Assembly (NCBI GenBank): GCA_964566255.1
Contig: CAZMID010000002.1
Span: forward strand, 30,923 to 94,922
DNA: 64,000 nt
Reading direction: 5' to 3'
Source of the DNA: an uncultured Planctomycetia bacterium
Lineage (GTDB): Bacteria > Omnitrophota > Gorgyraeia > Gorgyraeales > Gorgyraeaceae
Numbering within the stretch: the stretch's first letter is position 1; each line of letters begins with the position of its first letter. The notes beneath the pieces were generated by a model. It searched no databases, was not told the origin of the DNA, and worked only from the letters and a program-made list of their open reading frames with translations. Position numbers and translations under genes: made by a program. Below, piece by piece: positions 20,994 through 63,040 of the stretch.

Positions 20994-21003
20994 GGAGGAA
21001 GTC

Positions 21004-26190: not shown

Positions 26191-26195
26191 GTTTT

Positions 26196-33804: not shown

Positions 33805-35328
33805 ATGAACATTACGTTGATTCGTCCTCCAGCATATAGTACAGGATTGATGGGCGCTCAATTGGTGCCTTTTCTTGGAATTGCCTATATTGGTGCTGTT
33901 GCAAAAAAAGCAGGGCATAATGTTGATATTATAGATATGTGTGGAGAGGATATTGCTCGCACAGAGATTATACAGGATAGATATGTAGCTTATGGCATGT
34001 CTTTTGCTTCACTTGATAAACGGCTTAAGACTTCAGAGGTAATCGGTTTTACCTGTATGTTTTCCCAGGACTGGGTATTTCATAAGGCATTGATTGAATA
34101 TGTGCATAGGCTTTCTCCTGATAGTGTCTTCATTGCAGGAGGAGAACATATATCAGCTTTACCAGAGTATTGTTTAGACGATTGTCCCGAGTTAGATATC
34201 TGTGTAGTCGGTGAAGGAGAGGATGTATTTACACATCTTATCAGTACGCTTGAAGAAAAAGGTAGACTTTCTAATGTCCCAAGTCTTGTTTATCGTGACT
34301 GCAAAAATGGTGTTTATCACAGTACAAAAAGGTCTAATCGGATTAAAGATATAGATAGGATTCCTTTACCCATATGGGATCTTACCCCGATGGAAAATTA
34401 TCTCTCAAGGGAGTTAAATTATCATATACAGCGCGGTCGCACTATCCCAATGGTTGCAACTAGAGGATGCCCTTATAACTGTACTTTTTGTTCCAGTTTT
34501 AATATGTGGGGCAGACTTTGGATTCCGCGTAATCCTCGACTGGTCGTAGATGAAATGGAGTATTATATTGATAAGTATAAGGCAGACAATTTTGTTTTTT
34601 CAGAACTCACTACTATAGTAAGGAGAAAAGAGATTGTAGATTTGTGTAATGAAATTATAAATCGTAGAATTAATGTTACATGGCAACTTCCAACCTTGAG
34701 GACAGAGGATGTAGATTACGATATATTGAAACTTATGTATCAGGCAGGTTGTAGAGATTTAGATTTTGCTATAGAGTCAGGATCAAGGAAAGTGTTACTT
34801 AGTGTAAATAAGAGTAATAATCCGAATAAGATATTTTCTTTAGCTGGAGATGCAGTAGACCTGGGAATGAATCTGAGCACTAATATAGTTGTGGGCTTGC
34901 CACAAGAAAGATTTAGAGATTTTTTTAAAACTTATTGGCTGGTTGTAAAACTGGCAATTAGGGGCTCACAGGAATTAAACGTGTTTCCGTTTGTCCCTTA
35001 TCCAGGCTCAGAATTGTTTAAAGATTTTCTTAGAGATAAAAGGATTTCATTAAATGATGATTATTTTTTGAATCTCTTTGGTTATGGAAATTTGAGCAAG
35101 GCAATATCGTGGTCAGAACATTTTGGGCCAAGGACATTAAACTTCATGAGGCTTTTTTTATTGGTTAATTTTTATGGATTGATGTTGATTGCGCATCCGC
35201 GGCGCATTCTACAACTCATTAGTAATACTGTACGTGGCAGAGCCACTACAAAATTAGAAAATGTACTAAAGAAGGTATTTAAAAATGTCAATGTCTATGT
35301 TTCCAGTAGAGCAGGAAATACAGAATAA
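33805..35328 (+). CDS. B12-binding-domain radical SAM enzyme
   Basis: N-terminal Rossmann-like cobalamin-binding-domain pattern, then TRGCPYNCTFCSS (Cx3Cx2C). Confidence 0.75.
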   Translation: MNITLIRPPAYSTGLMGAQLVPFLGIAYIGAVAKKAGHNVDIIDMCGEDIARTEIIQDRYVAYGMSFASLDKRLKTSEVIGFTCMFSQDWVFHKALIEYVHRLSPDSVFIAGGEHISALPEYCLDDCPELDICVVGEGEDVFTHLISTLEEKGRLSNVPSLVYRDCKNGVYHSTKRSNRIKDIDRIPLPIWDLTPMENYLSRELNYHIQRGRTIPMVATRGCPYNCTFCSSFNMWGRLWIPRNPRLVVDEMEYYIDKYKADNFVFSELTTIVRRKEIVDLCNEIINRRINVTWQLPTLRTEDVDYDILKLMYQAGCRDLDFAIESGSRKVLLSVNKSNNPNKIFSLAGDAVDLGMNLSTNIVVGLPQERFRDFFKTYWLVVKLAIRGSQELNVFPFVPYPGSELFKDFLRDKRISLNDDYFLNLFGYGNLSKAISWSEHFGPRTLNFMRLFLLVNFYGLMLIAHPRRILQLISNTVRGRATTKLENVLKKVFKNVNVYVSSRAGNTE

Positions 35329-36145
35329 AATATTTAAATTAAGGAAAAAGGCGAATTGGATTAGAAGCCAAGTTTTAGAGATGATTGCCTTAGCCGGTAA
35401 AGGACATATTGGGGGAGCCTTTTCTTGTGCAGACATTCTGACCACTCTTTATTATGGCGGAGTGCTTCGTTTTGACATTTCTGATAAGGCCTGTGATAAA
35501 AGGGATAGATTTATTTTAAGCAAAGGACATTCAGGTACAACTTTATATGCAATACTGGCAGATCTTGGTTATTTCCCTCTTTCTGAATTACGTAATTATC
35601 AGAAGGAAGGGAGTATGCTGGGAGGGCATCCTGATAGGAAGATACCAGGCATAGAGGCTGATACAGGTTCTCTTGGACATGGCCTTGGTATTGGCGCAGG
35701 ATTAGCTTTAAGTGCGAAGATGAACAAAAAAGATTTCAAGACAGTTGTTTTGCTTGGTGATGGTGAGTGTTGCGAAGGTTCAGTCTGGGAAGCAGCTATG
35801 TTTTCAAGTCACCATAAGCTAAATAATCTTATTGGAATCGTGGACAAGAATGGGCTTTGTGTTACGGATTTTATTAAGGACTGCGTTGATATGGATCCAT
35901 TAAGCGAAAAATGGAAGGCCTTTGGTTGGGATGTAGCTATTATTAATGGTCATTCTTTTGAAGAGCTTCTATCAGTTTTTAAGGATTTGCATTCCCGTAA
36001 ATCAGATAGACCACTAATGATAATAGCAGAGACTGTGAAAGGTAAAGGTGTTTCTTTCATGGAGGGGAAGTGTAAGTGGCACCACAGTGTGCCAAAGGGC
36101 GAAGAACTTGAAACTGCAAGAAGAGAACTTAACGTGAATCTATAA
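35285..36145 (+). CDS. Transketolase, N-terminal (thiamine-diphosphate-binding) subunit
   Basis: GHIGGAFSCADILTTLYYG, the GDG…EG TPP motif (LGDGECCEGSVWEA), and the 286-aa length of split-transketolase A subunits. Confidence 0.85.
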   Translation: MSMSMFPVEQEIQNKIFKLRKKANWIRSQVLEMIALAGKGHIGGAFSCADILTTLYYGGVLRFDISDKACDKRDRFILSKGHSGTTLYAILADLGYFPLSELRNYQKEGSMLGGHPDRKIPGIEADTGSLGHGLGIGAGLALSAKMNKKDFKTVVLLGDGECCEGSVWEAAMFSSHHKLNNLIGIVDKNGLCVTDFIKDCVDMDPLSEKWKAFGWDVAIINGHSFEELLSVFKDLHSRKSDRPLMIIAETVKGKGVSFMEGKCKWHHSVPKGEELETARRELNVNL

Positions 36146-36156
36146 GGGGATTTGAA

Positions 36157-37098
36157 TTGAAGATTTCAACCGTTGATATGAGAGATGCTTTTTTTGATGA
36201 ATTGTATAAGATTGCCAAGGATGATCCACAAGTCGTTTTTCTTACTGCTGATATGGGAGCCCATAGCCTAGTCAGATTCAAAAAGGATCTTAAAAATCAA
36301 TATATTAATGTTGGGGTGGCTGAGCAAAATATGGTCAGCATATCTGCGGGTTTATCTTTGGGAGGTAAGAAAGTTTTTATATATACTATTATTCCATTTG
36401 CAACTTTGCGTTGTTATGAGCAGATCAAGATTGACCTCTGTTGCATGAATTTGCCAGTAACTATTATAGGGGCTGGTCCAGGATTTTGTTATGGAAGCGA
36501 TGGTCCTACTCATCATGCTACGCAGGATATTGCTGTTATGAGGACATTACCTGAGATGAGTATATTAAATCCGTCGGATTCCCTGATGTCTCAAGCGAGT
36601 GCAAGGATTGCATATACAAATTCATCCCCGACTTATGTGAGGATTGACAAAGGGATGCTTCCCTTGATTTATGATGAGATAAAAACTGATTTTTCAGAAG
36701 GCATTACTGAAGTCAGGCGTGGCAACGATCTAGCTATCATTTCTACTGGAATCATGGTGTGTAAGGCCTTGGAGGTAGCTGAGAGTTTACTTACTCATTC
36801 TATATCAGCCAGTGTAATTGATATATATAAAATTAAACCTTTGAATAAGAAGTTACTTTTAGAGTTTATTGATAAATCAAATCGCATTGTGACTCTGGAA
36901 GAAAATATTATTACAGGTGGAATAGGCAGCGCGGTAGGTGAAGTCTTAAATGATAATAGTAAAAAGATTCCTTTGAAACGTATAGCAATCTCTGATGAGC
37001 ACTGTTTTAAATCTGGCAGCAGGGAAGATTTGCAGGCATTTTATAATTTGGATAGAGATGGTATTACGGACACTATTTTAGAGTGGATAAGGAGGTAA
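36157..37098 (+). CDS. Transketolase, C-terminal (pyrimidine-binding and C-terminal domain) subunit
   Basis: VGVAEQNMVSISAGLSLGGK… is typical of split-transketolase B subunits. It is adjacent to the A subunit. Confidence 0.85.
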   Translation: MKISTVDMRDAFFDELYKIAKDDPQVVFLTADMGAHSLVRFKKDLKNQYINVGVAEQNMVSISAGLSLGGKKVFIYTIIPFATLRCYEQIKIDLCCMNLPVTIIGAGPGFCYGSDGPTHHATQDIAVMRTLPEMSILNPSDSLMSQASARIAYTNSSPTYVRIDKGMLPLIYDEIKTDFSEGITEVRRGNDLAIISTGIMVCKALEVAESLLTHSISASVIDIYKIKPLNKKLLLEFIDKSNRIVTLEENIITGGIGSAVGEVLNDNSKKIPLKRIAISDEHCFKSGSREDLQAFYNLDRDGITDTILEWIRR

Positions 37099-37099
37099 C

Positions 37100-37885
37100 A
37101 TGGAATTCAATATTAGAGATAAATATGCCCTCGTTACAGGAGGCACCCACGGTATTGGTCGTAGTATAGCATTGGCATTAGCGGATGAAGGATGTAATGT
37201 TGCTGTTTGTTCGCGCAATATTGAACGAGTAGAAAAAACTACAGAAGAGCTAAAAGCAAAGGGAGTAAACTGTCTTGGAATACAGGCAGATGTTATGATA
37301 GAAAGCGACATTAAAAAGGTTATGAATAAGGTTATAGATACATGGGGAACAATTCATATCTTAATAAATAATGTTGGTGGTGGTGGTAGATGGGGTAAGG
37401 AGAATGTAGAGGAGACTGAGGAGAGGGTATGGATGGAGGTGTATAATAAAAATGCGATTGCAACAATGCGCTTTACAAATCTTGCTATTCCCTATATGCG
37501 CAAACAAAGATGGGGTAGGGTGATAACTATAACTTCGATATTTGGAAGAGAGGGAGGCTCAAGACCCTGGTTTAGCATGGCAAAGACAGCTCAAAGCAGT
37601 CTTATGAAGGCCCTTGCTATGAAACCTTATTTAACTAGCGATGGTATTACATTCAATAGTGTTGCCCCTGGCGCCATAATGATACCTGATACTGGATGGG
37701 AAAAGGCGCTCAAGGAAAAACCTGATGATGTACAGGAATTTGTTAAGAGAGAGCTTCCATTAGGTCGTTTTGGCACCTCTGAAGAAATAGCCAGCCTTGT
37801 AGTTTTTATATGTTCTGAGAAAGCGTCATTACTTAACGGTGCCTCTATACCTGTAGATGGGGGTCAAAGTAGGAGTATCCTTTGA
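37100..37885 (+). CDS. SDR-family oxidoreductase (classical short-chain dehydrogenase/reductase)
   Basis: TGGTHGIGRSIA Rossmann motif and NNVG. The region is compatible with the catalytic Ser-Tyr-Lys triad. Confidence 0.78.
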   Translation: MEFNIRDKYALVTGGTHGIGRSIALALADEGCNVAVCSRNIERVEKTTEELKAKGVNCLGIQADVMIESDIKKVMNKVIDTWGTIHILINNVGGGGRWGKENVEETEERVWMEVYNKNAIATMRFTNLAIPYMRKQRWGRVITITSIFGREGGSRPWFSMAKTAQSSLMKALAMKPYLTSDGITFNSVAPGAIMIPDTGWEKALKEKPDDVQEFVKRELPLGRFGTSEEIASLVVFICSEKASLLNGASIPVDGGQSRSIL

Positions 37886-37898
37886 AAGGTAGATTCTA

Positions 37899-38570
37899 AT
37901 GAAGATATCTCTTGTTATTTTTACACTGAATGAAATAGATGGAATGAGGGTTATCATGCCGCGTATTAAAAAAGAGTGGTATGACCAATTGATTATTGTT
38001 GACGGTGGGTCGACAGATGGTACTGTTGAGTATGCAAAGGAACACGGTTACTTTATATTTGTACAAAACAGGAAAGGGGCCGGTGCAGCATTTAGAGAGG
38101 CAGTAGAAAAGGCAACAGGAGACATAGTTATTATATTGAGCCCTGATGGAAATTCTGTTCCTGAGAGGATACCTGATTTAATTGAAAAGATGAAGGAAGG
38201 ATATGATATAGTAATTGCTTCAAGATATACTAAAGGCGCAAAAAGCTATGATGATGATTTGGTAACTGCTTTTGGAAACTGGATGTTTACAAAGCTGATA
38301 AACTTGCTTTTTCGTTCCAAGATTACAGATTCATTGGTTATGTATCGAGCCTTTAGAAGGAGTGTAGTGGACGAACTCAAGATAAATACAGAAACCGTAT
38401 CGTGGGGTTCACAACTTCTGACAAGGGCAATTAGAAAAGGATTTAGAATTGGAGAAATTCCTGGCGATGAACCTCCTCGTATAGGTGGTGTAAGGAAGAT
38501 GCACCCACTGAAAAATGGAATATCCGAATTTTTGATGATTATTAGAGAATTTCTTACACGGAGGCAGTAA
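37899..38570 (+). CDS. GT2 glycosyltransferase, Dpm1/ArnC-like (paralog 2 of 3)
   Basis: FTLNEIDGMRVIMPRIKKEWYDQLIIVDGGSTDGT…SPDGNS…ASRYTKGAKSYDDD is near-collinear with the ORFs at 24533 and 58396. Confidence 0.75.
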   Translation: MKISLVIFTLNEIDGMRVIMPRIKKEWYDQLIIVDGGSTDGTVEYAKEHGYFIFVQNRKGAGAAFREAVEKATGDIVIILSPDGNSVPERIPDLIEKMKEGYDIVIASRYTKGAKSYDDDLVTAFGNWMFTKLINLLFRSKITDSLVMYRAFRRSVVDELKINTETVSWGSQLLTRAIRKGFRIGEIPGDEPPRIGGVRKMHPLKNGISEFLMIIREFLTRRQ

Positions 38571-39541
38571 TGTCATTTTTTAAAGATAAAAAGATCCTTG
38601 TTACAGGTGCAACAGGTTTTGTGGGCAGGAATCTGATTGACAAATTGTTGCAGTTAGATTCGACAATAAGGGCCACTATCCATAGGAGAGATCCTCTTAT
38701 TAATGATAATAGACTTGAGTATATAAAGGTAGATTTGACTAGGATGGAAGATTGCCAGAAGGTTGTTAAGGGGATGGACTATGTGTTTCATTGTGCTGGG
38801 AGTACTTCCGGGGCCTTTACTATTGAGAAGACCCCACTTGTACATGTGACACCAAATATAGTAATGAATTCACAGCTCTTGGAGGCTGCTTATTTTGCAA
38901 GGGTTAAAAAGTTTTCATGGATCGGTAGTTCCACAGGCTATCCTCCTTCAGGCAATAGACTAGTTAAGGAAGAAGAGATGATGGAGGGGGAGCCTTATGA
39001 TAAATATTTCTATGTAGGTTGGATGAAGAGATATACTGAAGTCCTTTGTCGTACATATTCGGAAAGATTAAAGAATCCCATGACGACAGTTGTATTGCGA
39101 CCTACGAATATTTACGGTGAATATGATGATTTTGAGTTTGAGACCTCCCATGTCTTTGCAGCCTTAATCAGGAGGATAGTAGAAAGGTGTAACCCTATTG
39201 AAGTATGGGGGACAGGAGAAGATGTAAGAGATTTAATTTATATCGGGGACTTTATTGAGGCCCTGCTTTTGGCGATGAAAAAAATCGATTCCTATAATCC
39301 TATAAATATTGGTTCAGGCAAAGGTTATAGCATTAAGGAGCTTCTTAGGATGATGTTAGAGATAGACGGTTACAGGGATGCCAAGGTCGTTTTTGATTCT
39401 TCTAAGCCAACAACGATTCCTGTGAGATTGATAGACACTACTAAAGCCAAGGCTCTATTAGGGTTTAGGGCAAAGACCGGGCTAGAAGAAGGAATTAAAA
39501 ATACTTTCAAATGGTATAGGGAAAACAGATTAAGGAAGTAG
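38570..39541 (+). CDS. NAD-dependent epimerase/dehydratase family protein
   Basis: ILVTGATGFVGRNL Rossmann motif. Extended SDR, 323 aa. Confidence 0.7.
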   Translation: MSFFKDKKILVTGATGFVGRNLIDKLLQLDSTIRATIHRRDPLINDNRLEYIKVDLTRMEDCQKVVKGMDYVFHCAGSTSGAFTIEKTPLVHVTPNIVMNSQLLEAAYFARVKKFSWIGSSTGYPPSGNRLVKEEEMMEGEPYDKYFYVGWMKRYTEVLCRTYSERLKNPMTTVVLRPTNIYGEYDDFEFETSHVFAALIRRIVERCNPIEVWGTGEDVRDLIYIGDFIEALLLAMKKIDSYNPINIGSGKGYSIKELLRMMLEIDGYRDAKVVFDSSKPTTIPVRLIDTTKAKALLGFRAKTGLEEGIKNTFKWYRENRLRK

Positions 39542-39542
39542 A

Positions 39543-41099: not shown

Positions 41100-41114
41100 A
41101 AGGAGTGTCTTCTC

Positions 41115-42566: not shown

Positions 42567-42570
42567 AACT

Positions 42571-43506
42571 ATGAAGAAAAAATCAAAAATATTCATTACG
42601 GGACATAATAGTATGCTGGGTTCTGCTCTATTCAATCGGTTAAAAGAAGGAGGATTCAGTAACTTAGTCGCGAAGGATTCATCAGAACTTAATCTTACGA
42701 ATCAGAGGGCCGTTGATTCATTTTTCAAAAAAGAAAAGCCCGAATATTGCTTTTTAGCTCCAATAAAAGAAGGCGGGATACTTTTAAATATGATGCATCC
42801 TGCTGAATTAGTTTATCAGAACATTGCCACACTAAGTAATGTTGTTCATTCTGCATGGGAGGCAGGGGTTAAGAAGCTTTTATTTTTTGCCAGCTCCTGT
42901 GTTTATTCTAAGGACTGCCCTCAACCTATGAAGGAAGAATATTTATTGACAGGTCCATTAGAGCCGACCAATGAGGCGTATGCAATTGCTAAGATTGCAG
43001 GGATTAAAATGTGCCAGGCATACAATGCTCAATTTGGTACACGGTTTCTTTCTGTGATACCTGCTACTGTTTTTGGACCAGAAGATAATTTCGATTTTAA
43101 GACTTCTCATGTGATATCTGCATTGATTAGGAAATTTCACGAGGGCAAGATAAAAAATGAGCCTGTTGTTAATATCTGGGGGACAGGGAAACCTCGCAGG
43201 GAATTTATATATGTGGACGATTTGGTAGATGCAAGTCTGTTCTTTATGCAGGAAGATAATCCTGTAGAACTTATTAATATGGGTAGTGGTATGGATGTAT
43301 CTATACAAGAGCTGGCTGAGTTGATAAAAGGACTTACTGGTTTTAAAGGTAAGATAGAATTTGATACTACTAAACCCGATGGTGTCTTAAGAAAGTTGCT
43401 TGATAGTCATCGTTTAAATTCTTTAGGTTGGAGACCGAAGGTCGGACTTCAAAAAGGATTGAAGAATACTTATCAGTGGTATACAAATAAAAAGGTTAAA
43501 AGGTAA
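42571..43506 (+). CDS. fcl: GDP-L-fucose synthase (GDP-4-keto-6-deoxy-D-mannose 3,5-epimerase/4-reductase)
   Basis: [40 protein letters not shown] and [11 protein letters not shown] match E. coli Fcl motifs ([38 protein letters not shown]). Confidence 0.85.
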   Translation: [311 protein letters not shown]

Positions 43507-43516
43507 AATTCTAAAA

Positions 43517-44530: not shown

Positions 44531-44549
44531 TAAGGATTGGAGTGAGGTT

Positions 44550-48300: not shown

Positions 48301-48303
48301 TTA

Positions 48304-50139: not shown

Positions 50140-51553
50140 TCTAATTAAAGAACTTCATGACCGGCATGGCATTTATTCACTGTCAAGTGCCATGAAGCAA
50201 CATGGTGTTGAGGTTTATTTTGTCGGGGAAAGAACTTATAAAAGGGCACTACGCAGAGTAAAAGAAATCAGACCAGATTTTTTACTCTATTCTTCTTTTT
50301 CCTCAACTATGTCAGTTTATACTGAGTTTGACAAAATGTCCAAAGAGTTTGTTAAGGCAAGATCCCTAATAGGAGGGCCTGGGCCGACATTTGATTGGAA
50401 GAGCATAGAGAATTCTTCTATTGATAGTGCATGTGTTGGTGAAGGAGAATTTGCATTAGTGGATTTTATTAAGAGTAACTTTCATACTACAAAAAATATA
50501 TTTAGAAGAGAAGAGCTTGCACCTTCTGGATTTTATCCTCTTGTAGAGTTGGATAGATTACCTTTTCCTGACAGGGATGTGGTTTATAGAGAAGATTCTA
50601 TACTTAGAAATCAACCATCTAAACAGTTTCTTTCTGGTAGAGGATGTCCTTATCAGTGTACATATTGTTTTAATCATAAGTTTAGAGATATTTTTAAAGG
50701 TCTTGGTCCATCTGTAAGAAAGAAGAGTCTTGGATATTTATTTGATGAGATACGCTATGTAAAGAAAAGATATCCGCTTTCAAGTATTGTATTTAACGAT
50801 GATACTTTCATTTTAGATAGAAAGTGGTTTGTAGAGTTTTGCGAGCGGTTTCCAAAAGAAATTGGTCTGACGTACACTTGTAATATAAGGCCTAATTTGA
50901 TTGACGAAGAAGTAGTCAGGTTATTAAAAGACAGTAATTGCACAGGTGTAAACTGGAGCATAGAGTCAGGAGATGATTACTTAAGAAATGAGGTACTTAA
51001 AAGAAATATAACTATTGAGCAGATATTGAATACATCGGAACTTTTAAGAAAGTATAAGATTTCGTATAGAATTGGAAATATTATTGGTTTGCCTGGAGAA
51101 AATTTTGAACAAATGCTTAAAACATTAAAGTTAAATATAAAGGCCAGACCTTCTATGGCATTTAGTGGCATTTTTGTCCCTTTTCCTGGTTTGGCTTTAA
51201 CAGAATATGCGATTTCCCACGGTTATTATAAGCCAGACACAAAGCGAGGTTTACCAGATGGCCGTACAAGATGCCTCATGAATGTAAGTCAAAATGAGAA
51301 TCTAAAGATTCAAAAACTATTCTGTTTATTTCCATTATTTGTGAAATATCCAGTTTTATTTGATAGAGATGCCTTGCGGAAAACGTTGTTTTCTATACCT
51401 TTATGTATATTAAAAATATTATTTACGTTTTATTATGGCTTTCACATGATGAAACTTCATATTCCAAAGGTATCTTTCTTCCAGAAATGTCAAATAGCCA
51501 TGAGATTTATTATAAATTTATATATATCGAATAAAAGGTATAGAAGGAAATAA
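50117..51553 (+). CDS. B12-binding-domain radical SAM enzyme
   Basis: N-terminal B12-binding-like fold (…LIGGPGPTF…VGEGE…), then SGRGCPYQCTYCFN. Confidence 0.72.
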   Translation: MIKVAFVDLIKELHDRHGIYSLSSAMKQHGVEVYFVGERTYKRALRRVKEIRPDFLLYSSFSSTMSVYTEFDKMSKEFVKARSLIGGPGPTFDWKSIENSSIDSACVGEGEFALVDFIKSNFHTTKNIFRREELAPSGFYPLVELDRLPFPDRDVVYREDSILRNQPSKQFLSGRGCPYQCTYCFNHKFRDIFKGLGPSVRKKSLGYLFDEIRYVKKRYPLSSIVFNDDTFILDRKWFVEFCERFPKEIGLTYTCNIRPNLIDEEVVRLLKDSNCTGVNWSIESGDDYLRNEVLKRNITIEQILNTSELLRKYKISYRIGNIIGLPGENFEQMLKTLKLNIKARPSMAFSGIFVPFPGLALTEYAISHGYYKPDTKRGLPDGRTRCLMNVSQNENLKIQKLFCLFPLFVKYPVLFDRDALRKTLFSIPLCILKILFTFYYGFHMMKLHIPKVSFFQKCQIAMRFIINLYISNKRYRRK

Positions 51554-51567
51554 AAAAGGGGATTATC

Positions 51568-52752
51568 ATGAAAAGACTATCGAAGATTACAGATGGATTG
51601 ATTGGCCAACCTATGTTTAAACTTCTTGTAAAAGTAAAGGAGATGGAAGAAAGAGGCGCTAGGATCTTTCATTTTGAAATAGGGGATTCGGATTTTAGGG
51701 CGCATCAACATATTGTAGAAGCAACCAAAAAGGCGCTCGATAATGATAAAACTCATTATGTTTCATCAATAGGTATATCAGAATTAAGAGAGGCTATTTG
51801 CGATTCTACAGAAGAGACATTGGGTTTTAGACCAGATCTAGACCAGGTGGTTGTTATGCCGGCCAATGGTATTATTGATTTTGTAATGCGCTGTGTTGCT
51901 GAACCAGGTGACGAGGTTCTGTATCCTGACCCAGGGTTTTCTACATATCTAGCTGTAACTAATTATACAGGCATTAAAAAGGTCGGGATCCCTGTAAGGG
52001 AAGAAAATAGATTCCACATGGAACCAGAAGAAATAAGAAGACGGATAACTGATAAAACGCGACTTCTAATTATTAACTCTCCACAAAACCCAACAGGTGC
52101 TGTGATGAGCAAAAAAGATGTAGAAGAAATCGCCTTAATAGCCCAAGAGAATGATATCTATATTTTGAGTGATGAGATATATTCAAAGGTTATTTATGGG
52201 AAGACACATTATTCACCCAGTTTTCTAGATAGATGTTTAGACAGGACTATTATTTTAAATGGGTTTGCAAAAAATTATTCAATGCCTGGATGGAGATTAG
52301 GTTATGCGATAGGTCCAAAAGAGGTTATCAAAAAGATGGGCATCCTTTTTCAGACAATTTATTCTTGCACACCTCCTTTTATTCAATATGGAGGGATTGC
52401 AGCACTAAGAGGAGATCAGAGAGCTATCGGAGAAAGGATACAGAAATATAAAGCACTAAGAGATCTAATTGTTAAGGGGTTAAATGAGATTCCTGGGGTA
52501 TCTTGCATGGTTCCAGAGGGTGCTTGTTATGTTTTTCCGAATATAAAAGGGACTGGGATGGACAGTGTTCAGTTTGCTGATTTTGTACTGGAGAAGGCAG
52601 GAGTAGCCCTTTTACCTGGAACGTGTTTTGGTGAGTATGGTGAGGGACATGTAAGACTTTGTTACACGAGACATCCAGAAGTTATTAAAGAGGCATGCGA
52701 AAAAATGAAAAAGGCATTCATGGAGAAGAAAAATGAAGTCTGTATTCATTAA
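51568..52752 (+). CDS. Class I/II PLP-dependent aminotransferase (aspartate aminotransferase-like fold type I)
   Basis: Length and motifs (…IINSPQNPTGAV…, …NGFAKNYSMPGWRLGYAIG…) match the pattern with the conserved PLP-binding Lys. The C-terminal HVRL is present. Confidence 0.8.
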   Translation: MKRLSKITDGLIGQPMFKLLVKVKEMEERGARIFHFEIGDSDFRAHQHIVEATKKALDNDKTHYVSSIGISELREAICDSTEETLGFRPDLDQVVVMPANGIIDFVMRCVAEPGDEVLYPDPGFSTYLAVTNYTGIKKVGIPVREENRFHMEPEEIRRRITDKTRLLIINSPQNPTGAVMSKKDVEEIALIAQENDIYILSDEIYSKVIYGKTHYSPSFLDRCLDRTIILNGFAKNYSMPGWRLGYAIGPKEVIKKMGILFQTIYSCTPPFIQYGGIAALRGDQRAIGERIQKYKALRDLIVKGLNEIPGVSCMVPEGACYVFPNIKGTGMDSVQFADFVLEKAGVALLPGTCFGEYGEGHVRLCYTRHPEVIKEACEKMKKAFMEKKNEVCIH

Positions 52753-53887
52753 TGATATTACATTGAGAGATGGGGAACAGGCTGCAGGAGTTAATTTTTT
52801 CCCTGAGGAAAAATTAAAGATTGCCGAAAGCTTGGTTAAATTGGGCGTCCCTATAATTGAAGCTGGGTTTCCAATAGCTTCAGACCAGGACGCTAAAGGC
52901 GTGGAGCTGGTTGCTAAAGAATTCGGAAAAGATATTATCATTAGCGCTATGTGTAGAGCTGTATTTAAAGATATAGAAGTAGCGAGTAAATCATTAGGAG
53001 ATGCCCCTAAAAGAAGGATACAGGTTGTTATGGGTACCTCCGACATACATTTAAAGCATAAGTTTAACATATCAAGAGAAAAGGCCTTAGATATCTCAGT
53101 AGAGTCGGTTAGATATGCTTGTAAGTTTTCTAACGATATAGAGTTTGCGGCCGAAGATTCTACAAGAAGCGATCTAAGCTATCTTATAGAGGTGTGCAAG
53201 GCTTGTGTTGCAGCAGGTGCAAAGACAATAGAACTTCCTGATACTGTTGGATATGCTACACCAGAAGAATATTTCAATATGGTAGCTTCAGTTGTAAAAT
53301 CCCTTCCTTCAGAAGTGATTGTTTCTACGCACTGTCATAATGATCTTGGTATGGCAACAGCAAATACACTCGCAGGCATTCAGGCAGGTGCCAAGCAGGC
53401 AGAAGTTACCATAAATGGAATTGGAGAAAGAGTTGGGAATGCATCTTCAGAAGAGGTCATTATGGCTTTAAGGGCGAGGAGAGATTTTTATAAGATCGAT
53501 GTAGACTATGTCAATGCCAAAGAGATTATGAAGTTGAGTAAGTTGATTGAGGAACTTTCCCAGATAAAGATCGCTCATAATAAGGCTGTTGTTGGAAAAG
53601 GGGCATTTTTACATGAATCAGGCATACATCAAGATGGGCTTATAAAGTCACCTCAGACGTATCAACTTTTAAACCCAGGAGACATTGGTCTAGAGGGGTA
53701 TGAGTTAGTTATAGGAAAACTCTCAGGGAAGAATGCCTTAAAAGAGAGGATGAATATTATTGGGATTGGGTTAGGCGATAAAGATATGGCAGATTTTTCT
53801 AGGTTTTTTAAAGATCATGTTGCAAAAAAGAAATTTATTACAGATGATGATATATCAAATCTATACAAGAGATGGAAAAACAGCTAG
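52733..53887 (+). CDS. HMGL-like DRE-TIM metallolyase (2-isopropylmalate/homocitrate/citramalate synthase family) lacking a LeuA regulatory domain
   Basis: INDITLRDGEQAAGVNF… matches the (L)RDGEQ motif, and …HCHNDLGMATANTLAGIQAGA… matches HxH. It is 384 aa, catalytic TIM barrel plus a short subdomain. Confidence 0.75.
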   Translation: MKSVFINDITLRDGEQAAGVNFFPEEKLKIAESLVKLGVPIIEAGFPIASDQDAKGVELVAKEFGKDIIISAMCRAVFKDIEVASKSLGDAPKRRIQVVMGTSDIHLKHKFNISREKALDISVESVRYACKFSNDIEFAAEDSTRSDLSYLIEVCKACVAAGAKTIELPDTVGYATPEEYFNMVASVVKSLPSEVIVSTHCHNDLGMATANTLAGIQAGAKQAEVTINGIGERVGNASSEEVIMALRARRDFYKIDVDYVNAKEIMKLSKLIEELSQIKIAHNKAVVGKGAFLHESGIHQDGLIKSPQTYQLLNPGDIGLEGYELVIGKLSGKNALKERMNIIGIGLGDKDMADFSRFFKDHVAKKKFITDDDISNLYKRWKNS

Positions 53888-54693
53888 TAGAAATATTTAA
53901 AAAAATGTGTTTGATCCGCTATTTTGAGCTCCAGGTTATTGAGCCCAGAAAGAATGGTCTTACGCCTGGCCCTGTTTATTTGTCAGTAGGACAGGAGGCT
54001 ATTTCTAGCGCAATTTCAATGCTTACAAAAGGATATTCAGTTTTTGCACAGCATCGCTGTCACTCAGTGTATTTAGCATATGGTGGAGATCCTGGACGTC
54101 TTGTAGACGAGTTGTTTGGTCGAAGTTCAGGGTGTTGTGGGGGTAAGGGTGGCTCACCGTGCATACAAGATTTAAATATTCCTATGTATGGGCATCATGG
54201 GTTAATAGGAGAGAATATACCTTTGGCGACTGGTTATGCATTGGCTACGGGAAAACCTACAGTTGCCTATTTTGGCGATGCAGCATCTGAAGAAGATTAT
54301 GCATTGACTTCATTTGGTTTTGCTACAACTCATAAATTACCTATTTTATATGTTTGCGAAGATAACGATTTATCCATTTTAACTCCTATTAAGGACAGAA
54401 GAGATTGGAATGTTCATGATGTGACCACAGCTATGGGATTAAAGACCGAAGTGATTGTAGATGATCCTAAAGTAATCCTGGATACTGTTGGGGGGCTGAT
54501 TGAAAAGCTTCCTGCATTTGTCAATATTCAGACCACCAGGCACCTTTGGCATGAAGGGGGAGGGATCGATGGTCCTCCTGTGAGAGATAGAATAGCTGAG
54601 ATGAGAAAAATAATACCCGATGCATCAAAAATAGAAGATGAAATAAAAACATATGTTGAGGAACTATGGCAAAGACAGTCGCAGAAACTATAA
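53872..54693 (+). CDS. Thiamine-diphosphate-dependent E1 alpha-like subunit (short form)
   Basis: …CLIRYFELQV…PVYLSVGQEAI… matches the E1α N-terminal motif. TPP-binding is YFGDAASEEDYALTSFGFA…CEDND. It is 273 aa. Confidence 0.68.
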   Translation: MEKQLVEIFKKMCLIRYFELQVIEPRKNGLTPGPVYLSVGQEAISSAISMLTKGYSVFAQHRCHSVYLAYGGDPGRLVDELFGRSSGCCGGKGGSPCIQDLNIPMYGHHGLIGENIPLATGYALATGKPTVAYFGDAASEEDYALTSFGFATTHKLPILYVCEDNDLSILTPIKDRRDWNVHDVTTAMGLKTEVIVDDPKVILDTVGGLIEKLPAFVNIQTTRHLWHEGGGIDGPPVRDRIAEMRKIIPDASKIEDEIKTYVEELWQRQSQKL

Positions 54694-55553
54694 AAGAAGT
54701 TACTCGCAGGCATTTAGAGGAAAACAAAGGTTTATTGTTCGGGCAGTCCATAACAGCTGTTGGATGGGTAAATAATACAGTGCCTGACTGTAGAAATATT
54801 GTTGAATTTCCTATGTCTGATGTGTCCAATATGGGGATAGCTTGTGGTGCAGCAATTAGTGGGCGGCGACCTATTATTGTTATTCGTTTTCAGGATTTTA
54901 TGTGGCTCAATAGCAGTACCTTGGTAAATTATGCTGCCAAGTCCAAGGATATTATGGGCATACCGACGCCAATATTTGTAAGGGCTTTGGCCTTGGATAA
55001 TGCAGGCTGTGTCCATTCAGGTGTCCTCCACGGTATATTTATGCATATGCCGGGTTTCAGGGTTTGTTCTCCTATGACACCAAAAGAATATGAGGAAGCC
55101 TGGGATGATTTTATGGCTCATGACGATCCAATGATTGTTAGCGAACATAGAAAGAGTTTCAATAATACTGAGGAGTTTGCAAATACAAACAATAAAGCAG
55201 ATGTAACATTGATTTCGATATCATCGGCACGTTTTAATGTGATTAAGGCTGCATCTATACTTGAGAAAGAAGGAATTAGATGTAATCTTGCTCATGTTAT
55301 GTGGCTTAAACCTTTCAAAAAGGATCATATCTTGGAGGCGTTGAACAATAGCAAAAGAGGTTTGGTAATAGATGCTGGTTTTGAAATATGCGGGGCTTCT
55401 CAATCTATAGCTTATGAACTTATGTTGGAGACTGGTAAGCCTGTGAAGGCTTTAGGATTAGAAGATCGTTCAGTAGGTGTGGGTCTTGAATCCCGAAACC
55501 CAACACCATCTGCTGAAAGAATAGTTGCAGGAGTCAAAGATTTTTTACAATAG
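54666..55553 (+). CDS. E1 beta-like / transketolase pyrimidine-binding subunit (short form)
   Basis: Its position after the E1α-like gene, the fold-compatible pattern (…GIACGAAISGRRPII…) and 295 aa support the call. The assignment is weaker than for the pair at 43517 and 44550. Confidence 0.6.
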   Translation: MAKTVAETIKEVTRRHLEENKGLLFGQSITAVGWVNNTVPDCRNIVEFPMSDVSNMGIACGAAISGRRPIIVIRFQDFMWLNSSTLVNYAAKSKDIMGIPTPIFVRALALDNAGCVHSGVLHGIFMHMPGFRVCSPMTPKEYEEAWDDFMAHDDPMIVSEHRKSFNNTEEFANTNNKADVTLISISSARFNVIKAASILEKEGIRCNLAHVMWLKPFKKDHILEALNNSKRGLVIDAGFEICGASQSIAYELMLETGKPVKALGLEDRSVGVGLESRNPTPSAERIVAGVKDFLQ

Positions 55554-59100: not shown

Positions 59101-59135
59101 GGTTGACATATATAGGCATGAGGAGGCAATAAGAG

Positions 59136-63008: not shown

Positions 63009-63040
63009 AAACTTGAGGAAAATTTACAGAAAGGAGAGTC

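What the first reader, a model, noticed from the sequence alone, without database searches (positions are those of the whole stretch)
35285..55553. Three split thiamine-diphosphate enzyme pairs (transketolase N/C plus two E1α/β pairs) embedded in the glycan locus
Split transketolase subunits are the ORFs at 35285 and 36157. Two E1α/E1β pairs are the ORFs at 43517/44550 and 53872/54666. All are readable by TPP-binding GDG…N(N) motifs and subunit order. No E2 (lipoyl acyltransferase) or E3 is present, so these are not conventional 2-oxoacid dehydrogenase complexes. In sugar pathways, TPP enzymes transfer two-carbon (glycolaldehyde, hydroxyethyl or acetyl) units onto keto-sugars to make branched or chain-extended sugars. 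A transketolase could also supply sedoheptulose-7-P for the heptose branch. I read this as evidence that the glycan contains C-branched or higher-carbon sugars.
Basis: partly seen in the sequence, partly recalled or inferred. Interest (0 to 1): 0.72.

Follow-up and report, generated by a model that had tools for sequence, protein, structure and literature searches.

The report
Thiamine enzymes that probably branch sugars
A cell-surface sugar gene cluster from an uncultured bacterium holds three two-subunit thiamine-dependent enzymes that look like central-metabolism enzymes but most likely add short carbon branches to activated sugars, and the same gene sets recur in many bacterial and archaeal lineages where nobody has studied them.

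Summary
All six ORFs are thiamine-diphosphate (ThDP) enzyme subunits: a split transketolase (35285/36157), a PDH-like E1α/β pair (43517/44550) and a divergent, shorter E1α/β pair (53872/54666). No E2 or E3 gene lies in the 64-kb window or in 171 related loci.

They do not look like housekeeping enzymes. The transketolase C subunit has lost two of the four sugar-phosphate-binding residues. Its relatives with Gly at the phosphate-binding His sit beside nucleotide-sugar genes in 29 of 30 loci. Relatives that keep His or have Ser there do so in 2 of 14 (p = 5e-8).

Pair 2 is syntenic with a GDP-fucose-synthase-like gene and an RfbH-like gene in four phyla. Pair 3 belongs to a family found in at least 80 species of Bacteria and Archaea. 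That family nearly always lies with sugar kinase, nucleotidyltransferase, epimerase, RfbH-like and B12-radical-SAM genes, and an invariant Asp replaces its cofactor-activating Glu.

The best reading is yersiniose-like C-branching of NDP-keto sugars, or chain extension, using E1-type and transketolase-type carboligases. These types were previously tied to actinomycete antibiotics. I judge it a new variant of a known kind, of moderate to high interest.

The parts
35285..36145 (+). Split transketolase, N-terminal (PP-domain) subunit. The JGI gene call starts at 35297.
   Evidence: Pfam Transketolase_N 4e-42. It matches the C. hydrogenoformans split TK 6yak at 2e-74, and the catalytic His residues (H41, H82, H115, H265) and the GDG...N motif are kept. 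Homologues are 65-81% identical across Firestonebacteria, Omnitrophota, CPR and Dehalococcoidia.
36157..37098 (+). Split transketolase, Pyr plus C-terminal subunit, Gly-type subfamily. The JGI gene call starts at 36178.
   Evidence: Pfam Transket_pyr plus Transketolase_C. Mapped on human TK: R318 is kept as R9, S345 becomes H36, E366 is kept, H416 becomes G107, D424 is kept, and R474 becomes K165. Gly at the H416 position occurs in 145 of the 150 nearest cluster representatives.
37100..37885 (+). Classical SDR (FabG-like). Candidate reductase for the ketone of a hydroxyacetyl branch.
   Evidence: Pfam adh_short_C2 2e-48. It directly follows TK-C here and in L003 and L005. An aldo-keto reductase takes this place in L006.
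37899..38570 (+). Small GT2, polyprenyl-phosphate sugar synthase type.
   Evidence: NCBIfam: AglJ, dolichyl-P-hexose transferase, PpgS and ArnC-like matches, all below cut-off. No TM-like segment in a simple hydropathy scan.
38570..39541 (+). Extended SDR, weakly GDP-fucose-synthase-like.
   Evidence: Pfam Epimerase 9e-46. NCBIfam Fcl 166 bits against a cut-off of 500.
42571..43506 (+). GDP-L-fucose-synthase-like epimerase/reductase directly upstream of E1 pair 2.
   Evidence: NCBIfam GDPFucSynFcl 415 bits against a cut-off of 500. An epimerase-family gene lies directly upstream of E1a-E1b in L005 and L006, and one gene further upstream in L003, where a GHMP-kinase gene intervenes.
43517..44530 (+). 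[quoted passage not shown]
   Evidence: Pfam E1_dh 2e-67. NCBIfam PDH_E1_alph_y 319 bits, below the 394 cut-off. GDG...ENN motif and catalytic His257 present. The family is 60-78% identical in Omnitrophota and Chloroflexota, and includes a GmhB-E1a fusion, P0473.
44550..45605 (+). E1 beta, pair 2.
   Evidence: Pfam Transket_pyr plus Transketolase_C. The TPLSEEG motif keeps the cofactor-activating Glu, and AQHSQ keeps the catalytic His. Closest solved structure is Geobacillus PDH E1 beta, 3e-71.
45602..46828 (+). DegT-family PLP enzyme. Best match is RfbH, the NDP-4-keto-6-deoxyhexose 3-dehydrase.
   Evidence: Pfam DegT 3e-100. NCBIfam RfbH 278 bits against a cut-off of 423. It follows E1b in L170 as well and is present in 42 of 80 pair-3 loci.
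51568..52752 (+). Class I/II aminotransferase. Its ORF overlaps the next gene.
   Evidence: Pfam Aminotran_1_2 5e-63. Same position in L008, L009 and L014. Found in 10 of 80 pair-3 loci.
52733..53887 (+). Isopropylmalate/citramalate/homocitrate-synthase-like enzyme without the C-terminal regulatory domain.
   Evidence: Pfam HMGL-like 6e-81 plus HCS_D2. NCBIfam LeuA 474 bits over profile positions 5-382 of 516. The LRDGEQ and HCHND motifs are kept. Found in 15 of 80 pair-3 loci.
53872..54693 (+). E1 alpha-like, pair 3 (short, 273 aa).
   Evidence: Pfam E1_dh 1e-17. GDA...EDN keeps the Asp and Asn Mg ligands, and His227 aligns with human His263. A partner of this type is present in 78 of 80 loci that carry E1b3.
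54666..55553 (+). E1 beta-like, pair 3 (295 aa), with Asp52 in place of the cofactor-activating Glu.
   Evidence: Pfam. Alignment to human E1 beta pairs TPISE with FPMSD. Asp is invariant in 17 of 17 aligned family members. More than 1200 homologues. 93 relatives in species-representative genomes of Bacteria and Archaea.
55563..58362 (+). Two B12-binding radical SAM genes (55563-56930 and 56914-58362) directly downstream of pair 3.
   Evidence: Pfam B12-binding plus Radical_SAM. B12-rSAM genes follow E1b3 in L008, L009, L040 and L087 and occur in about 60 of 80 pair-3 loci.
33805..35328 (+). B12-binding radical SAM gene directly upstream of TK-N.
   Evidence: Pfam. Same position in the Firestonebacteria locus L003.
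39543..42566 (+). Two B12-binding radical SAM genes (39543-41099 and 41115-42566) between the TK module and the pair-2 module.
   Evidence: Pfam. Syntenic in L003.
46825..51553 (+). HemN-like radical SAM gene (46825-48300) and two B12-binding radical SAM genes (48304-50139 and 50117-51553).
   Evidence: Pfam.
24533..29679 (+). Sugar activation and delivery module: GT2 (polyprenyl-P type), extended SDR, GT-C (PMT_2), GHMP sugar kinase, NDP-sugar pyrophosphorylase.
   Evidence: Pfam and NCBIfam. The same five genes in the same order precede B12-rSAM, E1a, E1b and DegT in the Omnitrophota chromosome CP070837 (L170). GHMP-kinase and epim25258-like genes at 45% identity or more occur in 43 and 39 of 80 pair-3 loci.
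17260..18258 (+). GDP-mannose 4,6-dehydratase. Likely source of a GDP-4-keto-6-deoxy acceptor.
   Evidence: Pfam GDP_Man_Dehyd 8e-119.
58396..61454 (+). Third polyprenyl-P-type GT2 (58396-59100) and a 772-aa polytopic membrane protein (59136-61454). The latter is a candidate GT-C.
   Evidence: Pfam and NCBIfam. Ten TM-like segments. A 769-aa protein with no Pfam hit sits in the equivalent place in L170.

Best explanation
The three ThDP enzyme pairs are carboligases of nucleotide-sugar pathways. They serve a cell-surface glycan that is assembled through polyprenyl-phosphate carriers.

Proposed mechanism:
1. A sugar is activated by the GHMP kinase and the nucleotidyltransferase, or GDP-mannose is used. 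Extended-SDR enzymes (Gmd, the Fcl-like genes) convert it to an NDP-4-keto(-6-deoxy) sugar. The RfbH-like PLP enzyme may then 3-deoxygenate it.
2. Each E1 alpha/beta pair decarboxylates a 2-oxo acid. For pair 2 this is pyruvate. For pair 3 it may be a different 2-oxo acid, linked to the adjacent isopropylmalate-synthase-like enzyme and aminotransferase. The ThDP-bound acyl-anion equivalent is added to the sugar ketone. The product is a tertiary alcohol carrying an acyl branch, as in yersiniose, paulomycose or eurekanate.
3. The split transketolase transfers a glycolaldehyde (hydroxyacetyl) unit from a ketose or from hydroxypyruvate to an NDP-sugar carbonyl. The neighbouring SDR reduces the new ketone.
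4. The B12-radical-SAM enzymes then C-methylate the products.
5. The small GT2 enzymes load the finished sugars on polyprenyl phosphate for GT-C transferases.

Shown here: enzyme identities, the active-site inventory, absence of E2 and E3, and conserved gene neighbourhoods. Inferred: every substrate, every product and the order of steps.
For: Identity and intact catalytic machinery.

Not dehydrogenase complexes:
- No lipoyl, E2 or E3 domain in any ORF of 120 aa or more.
- AceF and Lpd tblastn find no E2, and only one weak Lpd-like fragment (L130), in the window plus 171 loci, 2.4 Mb in total.

Not a pentose-phosphate transketolase:
- TK-C keeps only one of the four phosphate-binding residues unchanged. 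The four positions read R, H, G, K against canonical R, S, H, R.
- Gly replaces the phosphate-binding His in 145 of the 150 nearest representatives.
- Gly-type loci carry nucleotide-sugar genes within 10 kb in 29 of 30 cases. His-type loci do so in 1 of 5 and Ser-type in 1 of 9. Fisher p = 5e-8.

Synteny:
- TK-N, TK-C, SDR, GT2, epimerase and B12-rSAM genes recur with an E1a-E1b pair in Firestonebacteria and Omnitrophota. In Dehalococcoidia, epimerase-E1a-E1b-TKN-TKC are contiguous.
- Pair-2 relatives lie in GT2-SDR-GT-C-kinase-NTP transferase-rSAM-E1a-E1b-DegT-Fcl order in Omnitrophota, and in GmhA-GmhB-E1a-E1b-epimerases-kinase order in Chloroflexota.
- A 513-aa GmhB-E1a fusion protein exists.
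- Pair 3: the E1a3 partner is present in 78 of 80 loci, Fcl-like in 62, B12-rSAM in about 60, GHMP kinase in 46 and RfbH-like in 42.

The gene upstream of E1a2 is GDP-fucose-synthase-like (415 bits) and a Gmd gene is in the window.

Precedent:
- E1 alpha/beta pairs attach pyruvate-derived C2 branches to NDP-keto deoxysugars. KbDH was shown in vitro; Plm8/9, AviB1/2 and the aldgamycin enzymes by genetics or feeding (PMC12247030, PMC4802897).
- Split-gene transketolases are proposed for hydroxyacetyl transfer in miharamycin and amipurimycin (PMC12247030).
- The RfbH-type plus ThDP enzyme logic matches yersiniose biosynthesis (PMC12247030).
Against: - No biochemical data exist for any member of these three families.
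- Pair 2 is sequence-wise very close to true PDH E1. E1b2 passes the NCBIfam subfamily cut-off for PDH E1 beta (330 against 321 bits).
- Pair 3 carries Asp for the near-universal catalytic Glu. That could mean lowered or different activity.
- The isopropylmalate-synthase-like enzyme keeps its 2-oxo-acid-binding motifs. Together with the class-I aminotransferase it points to amino-acid or 2-oxo-acid chemistry, which may not involve the sugar.
- The rest of the genome is unseen, so housekeeping copies cannot be confirmed.
- Context statistics rest on tblastn with this window's own proteins as markers, and on small control groups (5 and 9 loci).
Confidence: 0.62

Rival explanations
1. Housekeeping enzymes that happen to sit in the locus, or that feed it. 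The transketolase would make sedoheptulose-7-P for heptose synthesis, and the E1 pairs would be PDH or acetoin-dehydrogenase E1 components whose E2 and E3 are encoded elsewhere.
For: TK-N shares roughly half its residues with a bona fide split transketolase (6yak, 2e-74) and keeps all catalytic His residues. E1b2 passes the NCBIfam PDH E1 beta subfamily cut-off. The GHMP kinase and nucleotidyltransferase give their best, though weak, matches to HddA and HddC. The rest of the genome is not available.
Against: TK-C has lost the phosphate-binding His and Ser. That Gly-type signature tracks glycan loci in 29 of 30 cases, whereas canonical His-type split TKs do not (1 of 5). No GmhA or GmhB is in the window. 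No E2 or E3 lies near any of 172 sequences. The gene order with epimerases, DegT and rSAM genes is conserved across phyla that share little else. Three separate ThDP pairs in one operon-like array is hard to explain by chance.
Confidence: 0.08
2. At least pair 3, with the isopropylmalate-synthase-like enzyme, the class-I aminotransferase and B12-rSAM methylases, builds a non-sugar substituent. This would be an acyloin or a branched amino- or hydroxy-acid made from 2-oxo acids, which is only later attached to the glycan. The ThDP step would then not act on a sugar carbon.
For: The synthase keeps the LRDGEQ and HCHND motifs that bind a 2-oxo acid and metal. The aminotransferase is of the amino-acid type, not the sugar (DegT) type. 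The four ORFs overlap one another here and in L008. B12-rSAM enzymes are known to methylate amino-acid-derived carbons (general knowledge).
Against: The synthase and aminotransferase accompany pair 3 in only 15 and 10 of 80 loci. Sugar kinase, nucleotidyltransferase, Fcl-like, RfbH-like and epimerase genes accompany it in 34-62 of 80, including archaeal loci. So the invariant partners of pair 3 are nucleotide-sugar enzymes. No acyl- or aminoacyl-transferase that would attach such a substituent was recognised in the window.
Confidence: 0.15
3. The transketolase pair extends a sugar chain rather than branching it. It would add glycolaldehyde to an aldehyde carbon of an NDP-sugar (for example a C6 aldehyde) to give an octulose-type higher-carbon sugar, which the SDR then reduces.
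For: Aldehydes are the natural transketolase acceptors. No transketolase has been shown to accept a ketone (PMC12247030, section 2.3). Two UDP-glucose-dehydrogenase-family genes lie in the window. An SDR or aldo-keto reductase follows TK-C in L003, L005 and L006.
Against: No direct evidence either way. The only proposals in the literature for sugar-pathway split TKs are for ketone acceptors (PMC12247030). The conserved Asp that reads the acceptor C2-OH is kept in only 79 of 150 relatives, so acceptor geometry varies.
Confidence: 0.2

Closest known systems
[quoted passage not shown]
   Same: Adjacent E1 alpha and E1 beta genes with no E2 or E3. They are embedded among NDP-sugar dehydratase, epimerase, reductase and DegT genes. 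Expected chemistry: decarboxylation of pyruvate and addition of the C2 unit to a 3- or 4-keto deoxysugar.
   Different: The known examples are in actinomycete antibiotic clusters (PMC12247030, PMC4802897). These genes sit in cell-envelope glycan loci of uncultured diderm bacteria, CPR bacteria and archaea, next to B12-radical-SAM genes. Pair 3 is a shortened subfamily with Asp for the catalytic Glu, and in part of the family it is coupled to a 2-oxo-acid synthase and an aminotransferase. Sequence relationship to the characterised enzymes was not tested.
Split-gene transketolases proposed for hydroxyacetyl branching in miharamycin and amipurimycin biosynthesis
   Same: Separate TK-N and TK-C genes in a sugar-modifying cluster. 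The catalytic His residues that hold the donor C1-OH are kept, which is consistent with glycolaldehyde transfer.
   Different: According to the review, all 13 predicted examples come from Streptomycetes, and none has been characterised in vitro (PMC12247030). Here the subfamily is widespread (1754 cluster representatives at E < 1e-30, some of which will be canonical enzymes) and is marked by Gly at the phosphate-binding His. Whether the Streptomyces enzymes share that signature is unknown.
Yersiniose A pathway: CDP-glucose 4,6-dehydratase, E1(RfbH)/E3 3-deoxygenation, YerE ThDP-flavoenzyme, YerF reductase
   Same: The same logic of gene content: nucleotide-sugar activation, 4-keto formation, an RfbH-like 3-dehydrase, a ThDP carboligase, then a reductase. 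It is also a surface-polysaccharide context.
   Different: YerE belongs to the decarboxylase (acetolactate-synthase-like) superfamily and is a single polypeptide. Here the carboligase is of the two-subunit E1 type. The nucleotide is probably GDP, given the Gmd and Fcl-like genes. No E3-type reductase was identified.
Canonical split transketolase of Carboxydothermus hydrogenoformans (PDB 6yak/6yaj)
   Same: Closest solved structure for both subunits (2e-74 and 3e-51). Same alpha2beta2 architecture expected. Cofactor-binding and catalytic residues are conserved.
   Different: The C. hydrogenoformans enzyme keeps the canonical His and Arg at the phosphate-binding positions where the window protein has G107 and K165. 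At the canonical Ser position the window protein has H36. Canonical His-type relatives are not in glycan loci.
Pyruvate, branched-chain 2-oxo-acid and acetoin dehydrogenase E1 components
   Same: Fold, ThDP motif, catalytic His residues and alpha/beta gene order. The closest solved structures are human and Geobacillus PDH E1.
   Different: No E2 or E3 partner nearby in any locus. The neighbourhood is glycan biosynthesis. Pair 3 has Asp for Glu and shortened subunits.

Membership tests
Canonical (pentose-phosphate) transketolase | TK-N plus Pyr plus C domains, with the ThDP/Mg motif, the cofactor-activating Glu and the catalytic His residues | tested here: met
   Pfam. GDG...N, H41, H82, H115, H265 and the AEQN Glu are all present.
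Canonical (pentose-phosphate) transketolase | Sugar-phosphate binding tetrad: E. coli R358, S385, H461, R520, equal to human R318, S345, H416, R474 | tested here: not met
   The window protein has R9, H36, G107 and K165. Gly at the His position occurs in 145 of the 150 nearest representatives, whereas C. hydrogenoformans and human TK have His.
Canonical (pentose-phosphate) transketolase | Genomic context of central carbon metabolism, or no glycan association | tested here: not met
   29 of 30 Gly-type loci have nucleotide-sugar genes within 10 kb, against 1 of 5 His-type and 1 of 9 Ser-type loci.
2-oxo-acid dehydrogenase complex E1 (PDH, BCKDH, acetoin DH) | E1 alpha plus E1 beta with ThDP motif, activating Glu and catalytic His residues | tested here: met
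   Pair 2 meets all of these. Pair 3 meets them except that Glu is Asp52, invariant in 17 of 17 aligned family members.
2-oxo-acid dehydrogenase complex E1 (PDH, BCKDH, acetoin DH) | Works with a lipoyl-bearing E2 and an E3, usually encoded alongside | tested here: not met
   No such domain in the window. AceF and Lpd tblastn find no E2 and one weak Lpd-like fragment in 172 sequences. E2 and E3 genes elsewhere in the genome cannot be excluded.
E1-type (alpha-KADH2) sugar C-branching carboligases | E1 alpha/beta pair without E2 or E3, inside a cluster that makes an NDP-keto deoxysugar | tested here: met
   A Gmd gene, Fcl-like genes, an RfbH-like DegT gene and a kinase plus nucleotidyltransferase are in the window. 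The association is conserved across phyla.
E1-type (alpha-KADH2) sugar C-branching carboligases | Sequence clustering with characterised members (KbDH, Plm8/9, AviB1/2) | not tested
The closest solved structures are ordinary PDH E1.
E1-type (alpha-KADH2) sugar C-branching carboligases | Demonstrated 2-oxo-acid decarboxylation and addition to a keto sugar | not testable with these tools
   Needs enzyme assays.
Split-gene transketolases of sugar branching (miharamycin/amipurimycin type) | Separate TK-N and TK-C genes in a sugar-modifying cluster next to an oxidoreductase | tested here: met
   An SDR or aldo-keto reductase follows TK-C.
Split-gene transketolases of sugar branching (miharamycin/amipurimycin type) | [quoted passage not shown] | not testable with these tools
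   This is unproven even for the named family (PMC12247030, section 2.3).

The most novel reading that the evidence does not exclude
The window samples a widespread, uncharacterised sugar pathway shared by Bacteria and Archaea. In it, an E1-type ThDP enzyme that uses Asp instead of the near-universal Glu installs an acyl branch on an NDP-keto sugar. Several B12-radical-SAM enzymes then extend or decorate that branch by C-methylation, giving heavily alkylated higher-carbon sugars on cell surfaces. In parallel, the Gly-type split transketolases would be the first transketolases whose physiological substrate is a nucleotide sugar rather than a sugar phosphate. Unidentified residues such as the 174.09-Da sugar of the Kuenenia S-layer glycan could be products of this pathway.
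Probability: 0.25. Interest if true: 0.8.

Novelty: new variant of a known kind. Interest (0 to 1): 0.6.

Why it matters
According to the 2025 review I read (PMC12247030), ThDP-dependent C-branching of sugars has been assigned to YerE-type enzymes in lipopolysaccharides, and to E1-type or transketolase-type enzymes in actinomycete secondary metabolites.

If the reading here is right, the E1 and transketolase types are also common tools of cell-envelope glycan synthesis. They would operate in many uncultured phyla, in CPR and DPANN organisms, in anammox bacteria, in Pelagibacteraceae and in some gut Firmicutes.

That gives three practical gains:
- Sequence signatures to find these genes: Gly at the phosphate-binding His of TK-C, and the PM[SAT]DV motif in E1 beta.
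- Cultured carriers in which to test them.
- New candidate biocatalysts for making tertiary alcohols.

It also warns that "transketolase" and "pyruvate dehydrogenase E1" annotations in metagenome-based metabolic reconstructions can be wrong for these subfamilies.

Tried and rejected
- Housekeeping role for the transketolase and E1 pairs. I rejected it as the main explanation for the reasons given under the rival explanations. It is not excluded, because the rest of the genome is unseen.
- A heptose link for this window. GmhA and GmhB from L171 and L006 find nothing in the window, and occur in only 7 and 6 of the 80 pair-3 loci and in 4 and 6 of the 80 TK loci. HddA and HddC matches are far below cut-off. 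So heptose is a feature of some relatives only (L006, L171, fusion P0473).
- Coxiella O-antigen (virenose, dihydrohydroxystreptose) as a known LPS precedent for transketolase involvement. None of the listed papers that mention these sugars also mentions transketolase.
- Four literature searches for a description of this cassette. They returned only general precedent, nothing on these families in envelope glycans.
- Taxonomic assignment of the window. The exact-protein look-ups gave a JGI metagenome contig (3300009374) and an unnamed 111-kb NCBI contig.
- A phosphonate or other natural-product cluster, suggested by the synthase-like gene plus B12-rSAM genes. I set this aside. The ThDP enzymes are of E1 and TK type, not of the phosphonopyruvate-decarboxylase type. 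The locus also holds Wzi, Wza, GT-C and polyprenyl-P GT2 genes.
- Structure prediction was not used. It could not discriminate between the hypotheses.

Full report
**What is there.** The window is one long array of co-directional genes on the + strand, from 116 to 63008. It has about 36% G+C and a strong positive GC skew. The same sequence occurs on a JGI metagenome contig (3300009374, Ga0118720_1000442) and on an unnamed 111-kb NCBI contig. I could not obtain an organism name.

Pfam confirms the six ORFs of the finding:
- 35285 is Transketolase_N (4e-42).
- 36157 is Transket_pyr plus Transketolase_C.
- 43517 is E1_dh (2e-67).
- 44550 is Transket_pyr plus Transketolase_C.
- 53872 is a partial E1_dh match (1e-17).
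- 54666 is a weaker Transket_pyr plus Transketolase_C match.

The ThDP/Mg motifs are readable in all three alpha-type subunits.

**The surroundings.** This is a cell-envelope glycan locus of a diderm bacterium.
- Envelope and export: an LptD-like gene, Wzi and a 966-aa Wza.
- Nucleotide-sugar supply: two UDP-glucose-dehydrogenase-family genes, GDP-mannose 4,6-dehydratase and many extended-SDR epimerase, dehydratase or reductase genes.
- Activation: a GHMP sugar kinase plus a nucleotidyltransferase.
- Delivery: three small GT2 genes whose best matches are polyprenyl-phosphate sugar synthases (AglJ, dolichyl-P-hexose transferase, ArnC, PpgS). There is also a PMT_2-type GT-C and two further polytopic membrane proteins.
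- Radical SAM genes: seven B12-binding, two SPASM-type and one HemN-like, plus a DUF362-ferredoxin gene.

**Are these dehydrogenase complexes?** No ORF of 120 aa or more in the window has a lipoyl, E2-catalytic or E3 domain. I used E. coli AceF and Lpd as tblastn queries against the window plus 171 related loci, 2.4 Mb in total. They found no E2 homologue and only one weak Lpd-like fragment, in L130. A single query pair has limited reach. E2 and E3 genes elsewhere in the genome cannot be excluded.

**Is the transketolase a housekeeping enzyme?**

TK-N is close to the bona fide split transketolase of Carboxydothermus hydrogenoformans (6yak, 2e-74). It keeps the four catalytic His residues, including those that hold the C1-OH of the donor. 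That fits transfer of a glycolaldehyde unit.

TK-C is different. I mapped it on human transketolase, whose numbering I checked against D424, Q428 and R474. The cofactor-activating Glu and R318 are kept. S345 is His36, H416 is Gly107 and R474 is Lys165. So two of the four residues that bind the substrate phosphate are lost, and one is conservatively changed.

A full phmmer search of 1.84 billion cluster representatives gave 1754 matches at E < 1e-30. In the 150 nearest, Gly occupies the His position in 145. The C. hydrogenoformans and human enzymes have His there.

I then fetched 80 metagenome loci with this family and scored the 41 of at least 10 kb, plus three earlier loci, for neighbours:
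- Gly-type loci: nucleotide-sugar genes within 10 kb in 29 of 30. Of these 30, 27 have extended SDRs, 12 DegT, 11 an E1 alpha and 10 B12-rSAM genes.
- Loci with the canonical R-[ST]-H-D-H-R signature: 1 of 5.
- Ser-type loci: 1 of 9.
- Fisher p = 5e-8.

The control groups are small, and the markers are this window's own proteins. Even so, the separation is clean. The transketolase here belongs to a glycan-associated subfamily, not to the pentose-phosphate enzymes.

**Synteny of the transketolase and pair 2.**
- A Firestonebacteria MAG (L003) has almost the same order as the window: rSAM-SPASM, unknown, DUF362, rSAM, B12-rSAM, TK-N, TK-C, SDR, GT2, epimerase, two B12-rSAM, epimerase, kinase, E1a, E1b.
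- An Omnitrophota MAG (L005) has TK-N, TK-C, SDR, epimerase, B12-rSAM, GT2, epimerase, E1a, E1b.
- A Dehalococcoidia MAG (L006) has epimerase, E1a, E1b, TK-N, TK-C and an aldo-keto reductase. These lie beside an AglB/STT3 oligosaccharyltransferase gene and GmhA, GmhB and GHMP-kinase genes.
- E1a2 relatives are 60-78% identical in Omnitrophota and Chloroflexota.
- In the complete Omnitrophota chromosome CP070837 the order is GT2, SDR, PMT_2, GHMP kinase, nucleotidyltransferase, two B12-rSAM, E1a, E1b, DegT, Fcl-like, then a 769-aa protein. This matches two modules of the window.
- In a Chloroflexota MAG the pair sits between GmhA-GmhB and a run of epimerases and a GHMP kinase.
- One 513-aa protein fuses a GmhB-like phosphatase to E1 alpha. 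It comes from a single 1.8-kb contig, so this is weak evidence.

In the window, the gene directly upstream of E1a2 scores 415 bits on the GDP-L-fucose synthase model (cut-off 500). The gene directly downstream of E1b2 is a DegT-family enzyme whose best match is RfbH, the 3-dehydrase of 3,6-dideoxyhexose synthesis.

**Pair 3 is a separate family.**

E1a3 (273 aa) and E1b3 (295 aa) are shorter than canonical subunits. Relatives of pair 3 are only about 29% identical to pair 2. E1a3 keeps the Asp and Asn Mg ligands and the catalytic His. In E1b3 the Glu that activates ThDP in essentially all such enzymes (human E1 beta TPISE) is Asp52. This Asp is invariant in the 17 family members I aligned.

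The family has more than 1200 members at E < 1e-10. A scan of one genome per species found 93 relatives. They come from:
- Planctomycetota (including Brocadia), Omnitrophota and CPR lineages.
- Nitrospirota, Desulfuromonadales/Geobacteraceae (including cultured Geomonas limicola) and Elusimicrobiota.
- Verrucomicrobiota, Acidobacteriota, Pelagibacteraceae and Campylobacteraceae.
- Lachnospiraceae and Acutalibacter.
- Archaea: Pace-, Nano- and Woesearchaeota, and Methanosarcinales.

In the 80 loci kept, neighbours occur as follows:
- An E1a3-type partner: 78.
- Fcl-like genes: 62.
- B12-rSAM genes: about 60.
- A GHMP kinase: 46.
- RfbH-like DegT: 42.
- An epimerase like 25258: 39.
- A nucleotidyltransferase: 34.

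The isopropylmalate-synthase-like gene and the class-I aminotransferase overlap E1a3 in the window. They accompany the pair in only 15 and 10 loci, all among the closer relatives. The synthase keeps the LRDGEQ and HCHND motifs of 2-oxo-acid:acetyl-CoA condensing enzymes and lacks the regulatory domain.

**How it most likely works.**

The recurring gene set is: sugar kinase, nucleotidyltransferase, 4-keto-forming SDR, RfbH-like 3-dehydrase, ThDP enzyme, reductase/epimerase. This is the logic of yersiniose biosynthesis, with a two-subunit E1 in place of YerE.

The literature gives direct precedent:
- E1 alpha/beta pairs without E2 or E3 attach a pyruvate-derived C2 unit to C3 or C4 of NDP-keto deoxysugars. 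Examples are kibdelomycin (shown in vitro), aldgamycin, kosinostatin, paulomycin and avilamycin (PMC12247030; PMC4802897).
- Split-gene transketolases are proposed, but not proven, to transfer a hydroxyacetyl unit in miharamycin and amipurimycin synthesis. The 13 predicted examples are all from Streptomycetes (PMC12247030, section 2.3).
- An Actinoplanes exopolysaccharide cluster also carries a split transketolase next to DegT genes (PMC13390465).

I therefore read the three pairs as nucleotide-sugar carboligases.
- Pair 2 adds an acetyl-type branch, probably to a GDP-4-keto-6-deoxy sugar.
- Pair 3 does the same kind of reaction. Its donor may be a different 2-oxo acid in the sub-clade that carries the synthase and aminotransferase.
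- The transketolase adds a glycolaldehyde unit to a keto or aldehyde carbon of an NDP-sugar, and the SDR then reduces the product.
- The B12-rSAM enzymes are the obvious candidates for later C-methylation.
- The small GT2 and GT-C genes would deliver the products through polyprenyl phosphate.

All substrates and products are inferred. Confidence is about 0.6 overall. It is higher for "sugar-pathway carboligases" as a class and lower for any specific step.

**What remains open.**
- I could not compare these proteins with the characterised actinomycete enzymes.
- I could not see the rest of the genome.
- I could not establish a heptose link for this window. GmhA and GmhB are absent, and the HddA and HddC matches are weak.
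- The role of the synthase and aminotransferase is unexplained. It leaves room for a rival in which pair 3 builds a non-sugar substituent.
- Whether Asp52 supports normal ThDP activation is unknown.

**Novelty.** Four literature searches found no description of these cassettes in envelope glycans. The review I read assigns E1-type and transketolase-type sugar branching to secondary metabolites, and YerE-type branching to lipopolysaccharides.

The kind of enzyme is known. The new elements are:
- the setting in envelope glycan loci;
- the breadth across Bacteria and Archaea;
- the two sequence signatures (Gly-type TK-C, Asp-type E1 beta);
- the tight coupling with B12-rSAM genes.

I rate it a new variant of a known kind, with interest about 0.6.

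Noticed in passing
window 29676-58362: Ten radical-SAM genes lie in one glycan locus. Seven are B12-binding (33805, 39543, 41115, 48304, 50117, 55563, 56914), two are SPASM-type (29676, 32740) and one is HemN-like (46825). A DUF362-ferredoxin gene (31626) sits among them. Much of this set is syntenic in a Firestonebacteria MAG (L003). Their substrates are unknown. Iterative C-methylation of sugars or of their branches is the obvious guess.
   Followed up: partly
window 54666-55553 (Asp52); alignment A1: The E1 beta-like family of pair 3 has an invariant Asp (motif PM[SAT]DV) where ThDP enzymes almost universally have the Glu that activates the cofactor (human E1 beta TPISE). It is conserved in 17 of 17 aligned members from several phyla.
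   Followed up: partly
P0473 (JGI contig of 1827 bp); L171 9424-11017: A 513-aa protein fuses a GmhB-like heptose-bisphosphate phosphatase domain to an E1 alpha that is 62% identical to E1a2. In a Chloroflexota MAG the two genes are adjacent, 16 nt apart. The protein could be a true fusion or a sequencing or gene-calling artefact.
   Followed up: no
L039, L040, L043 (Candidatus Brocadia); PMC5088730: The S-layer O-glycan of the anammox bacterium Kuenenia stuttgartiensis contains an unidentified 174.09-Da residue, interpreted as a dimethyl-deoxyhexose. That mass (C8H14O4, 174.0892) is also that of a yersiniose-type 4-C-(1-hydroxyethyl)-3,6-dideoxyhexose residue. Brocadia genomes carry the pair-3 core cassette. 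Whether Kuenenia does was not checked.
   Followed up: no
window 24533-27953, 37899-38570, 58396-61454: There are three small, soluble GT2 genes of the polyprenyl-phosphate sugar synthase type. The first lies two genes upstream of a GT-C-like membrane protein (PMT_2, 13 TM-like segments) and the third lies directly upstream of one (a 772-aa protein, 10 TM-like segments). This suggests up to three separate lipid-linked sugar donors for periplasmic decoration, as in the ArnC/ArnT system.
   Followed up: partly
window 35285-37098 compared with homologues: The two transketolase subunits evolve at very different rates. TK-N homologues in other phyla are 65-81% identical, while the nearest TK-C cluster representatives are 34-61% identical. 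This fits a conserved cofactor and donor half and a diversifying acceptor half.
   Followed up: partly
window 51568-55553; L008 6840-10888: The aminotransferase, synthase-like, E1a3 and E1b3 ORFs overlap each other by 16-28 nt in the window. They overlap by similar lengths in a Planctomycetota chromosome, which suggests translational coupling of the four genes.
   Followed up: partly
window 19431-23904: A Wzi gene is followed by an unusually long Wza-type export protein (966 aa, six SLBB repeats).
   Followed up: no
window 5784-8478: Two adjacent diguanylate cyclase genes (GAF-GGDEF and GGDEF) lie upstream of the glycan locus, after dnaK/dnaJ and accD-like genes. They may regulate it through c-di-GMP.
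   Followed up: no
window about 63000-64000: An ORF running off the window's end reads like another DegT-family sugar aminotransferase (...YSFYATKTISTGEGGML...). The locus therefore continues beyond the window.
   Followed up: no
window 30794-31651 and 23921-24526: Two ORFs have little or no family assignment. The 285-aa ORF has only a weak CehA/McbA metallohydrolase-domain match, and a 275-aa ORF with no Pfam hit sits at the equivalent position in L003. The 201-aa ORF has no match and two TM-like segments.
   Followed up: no
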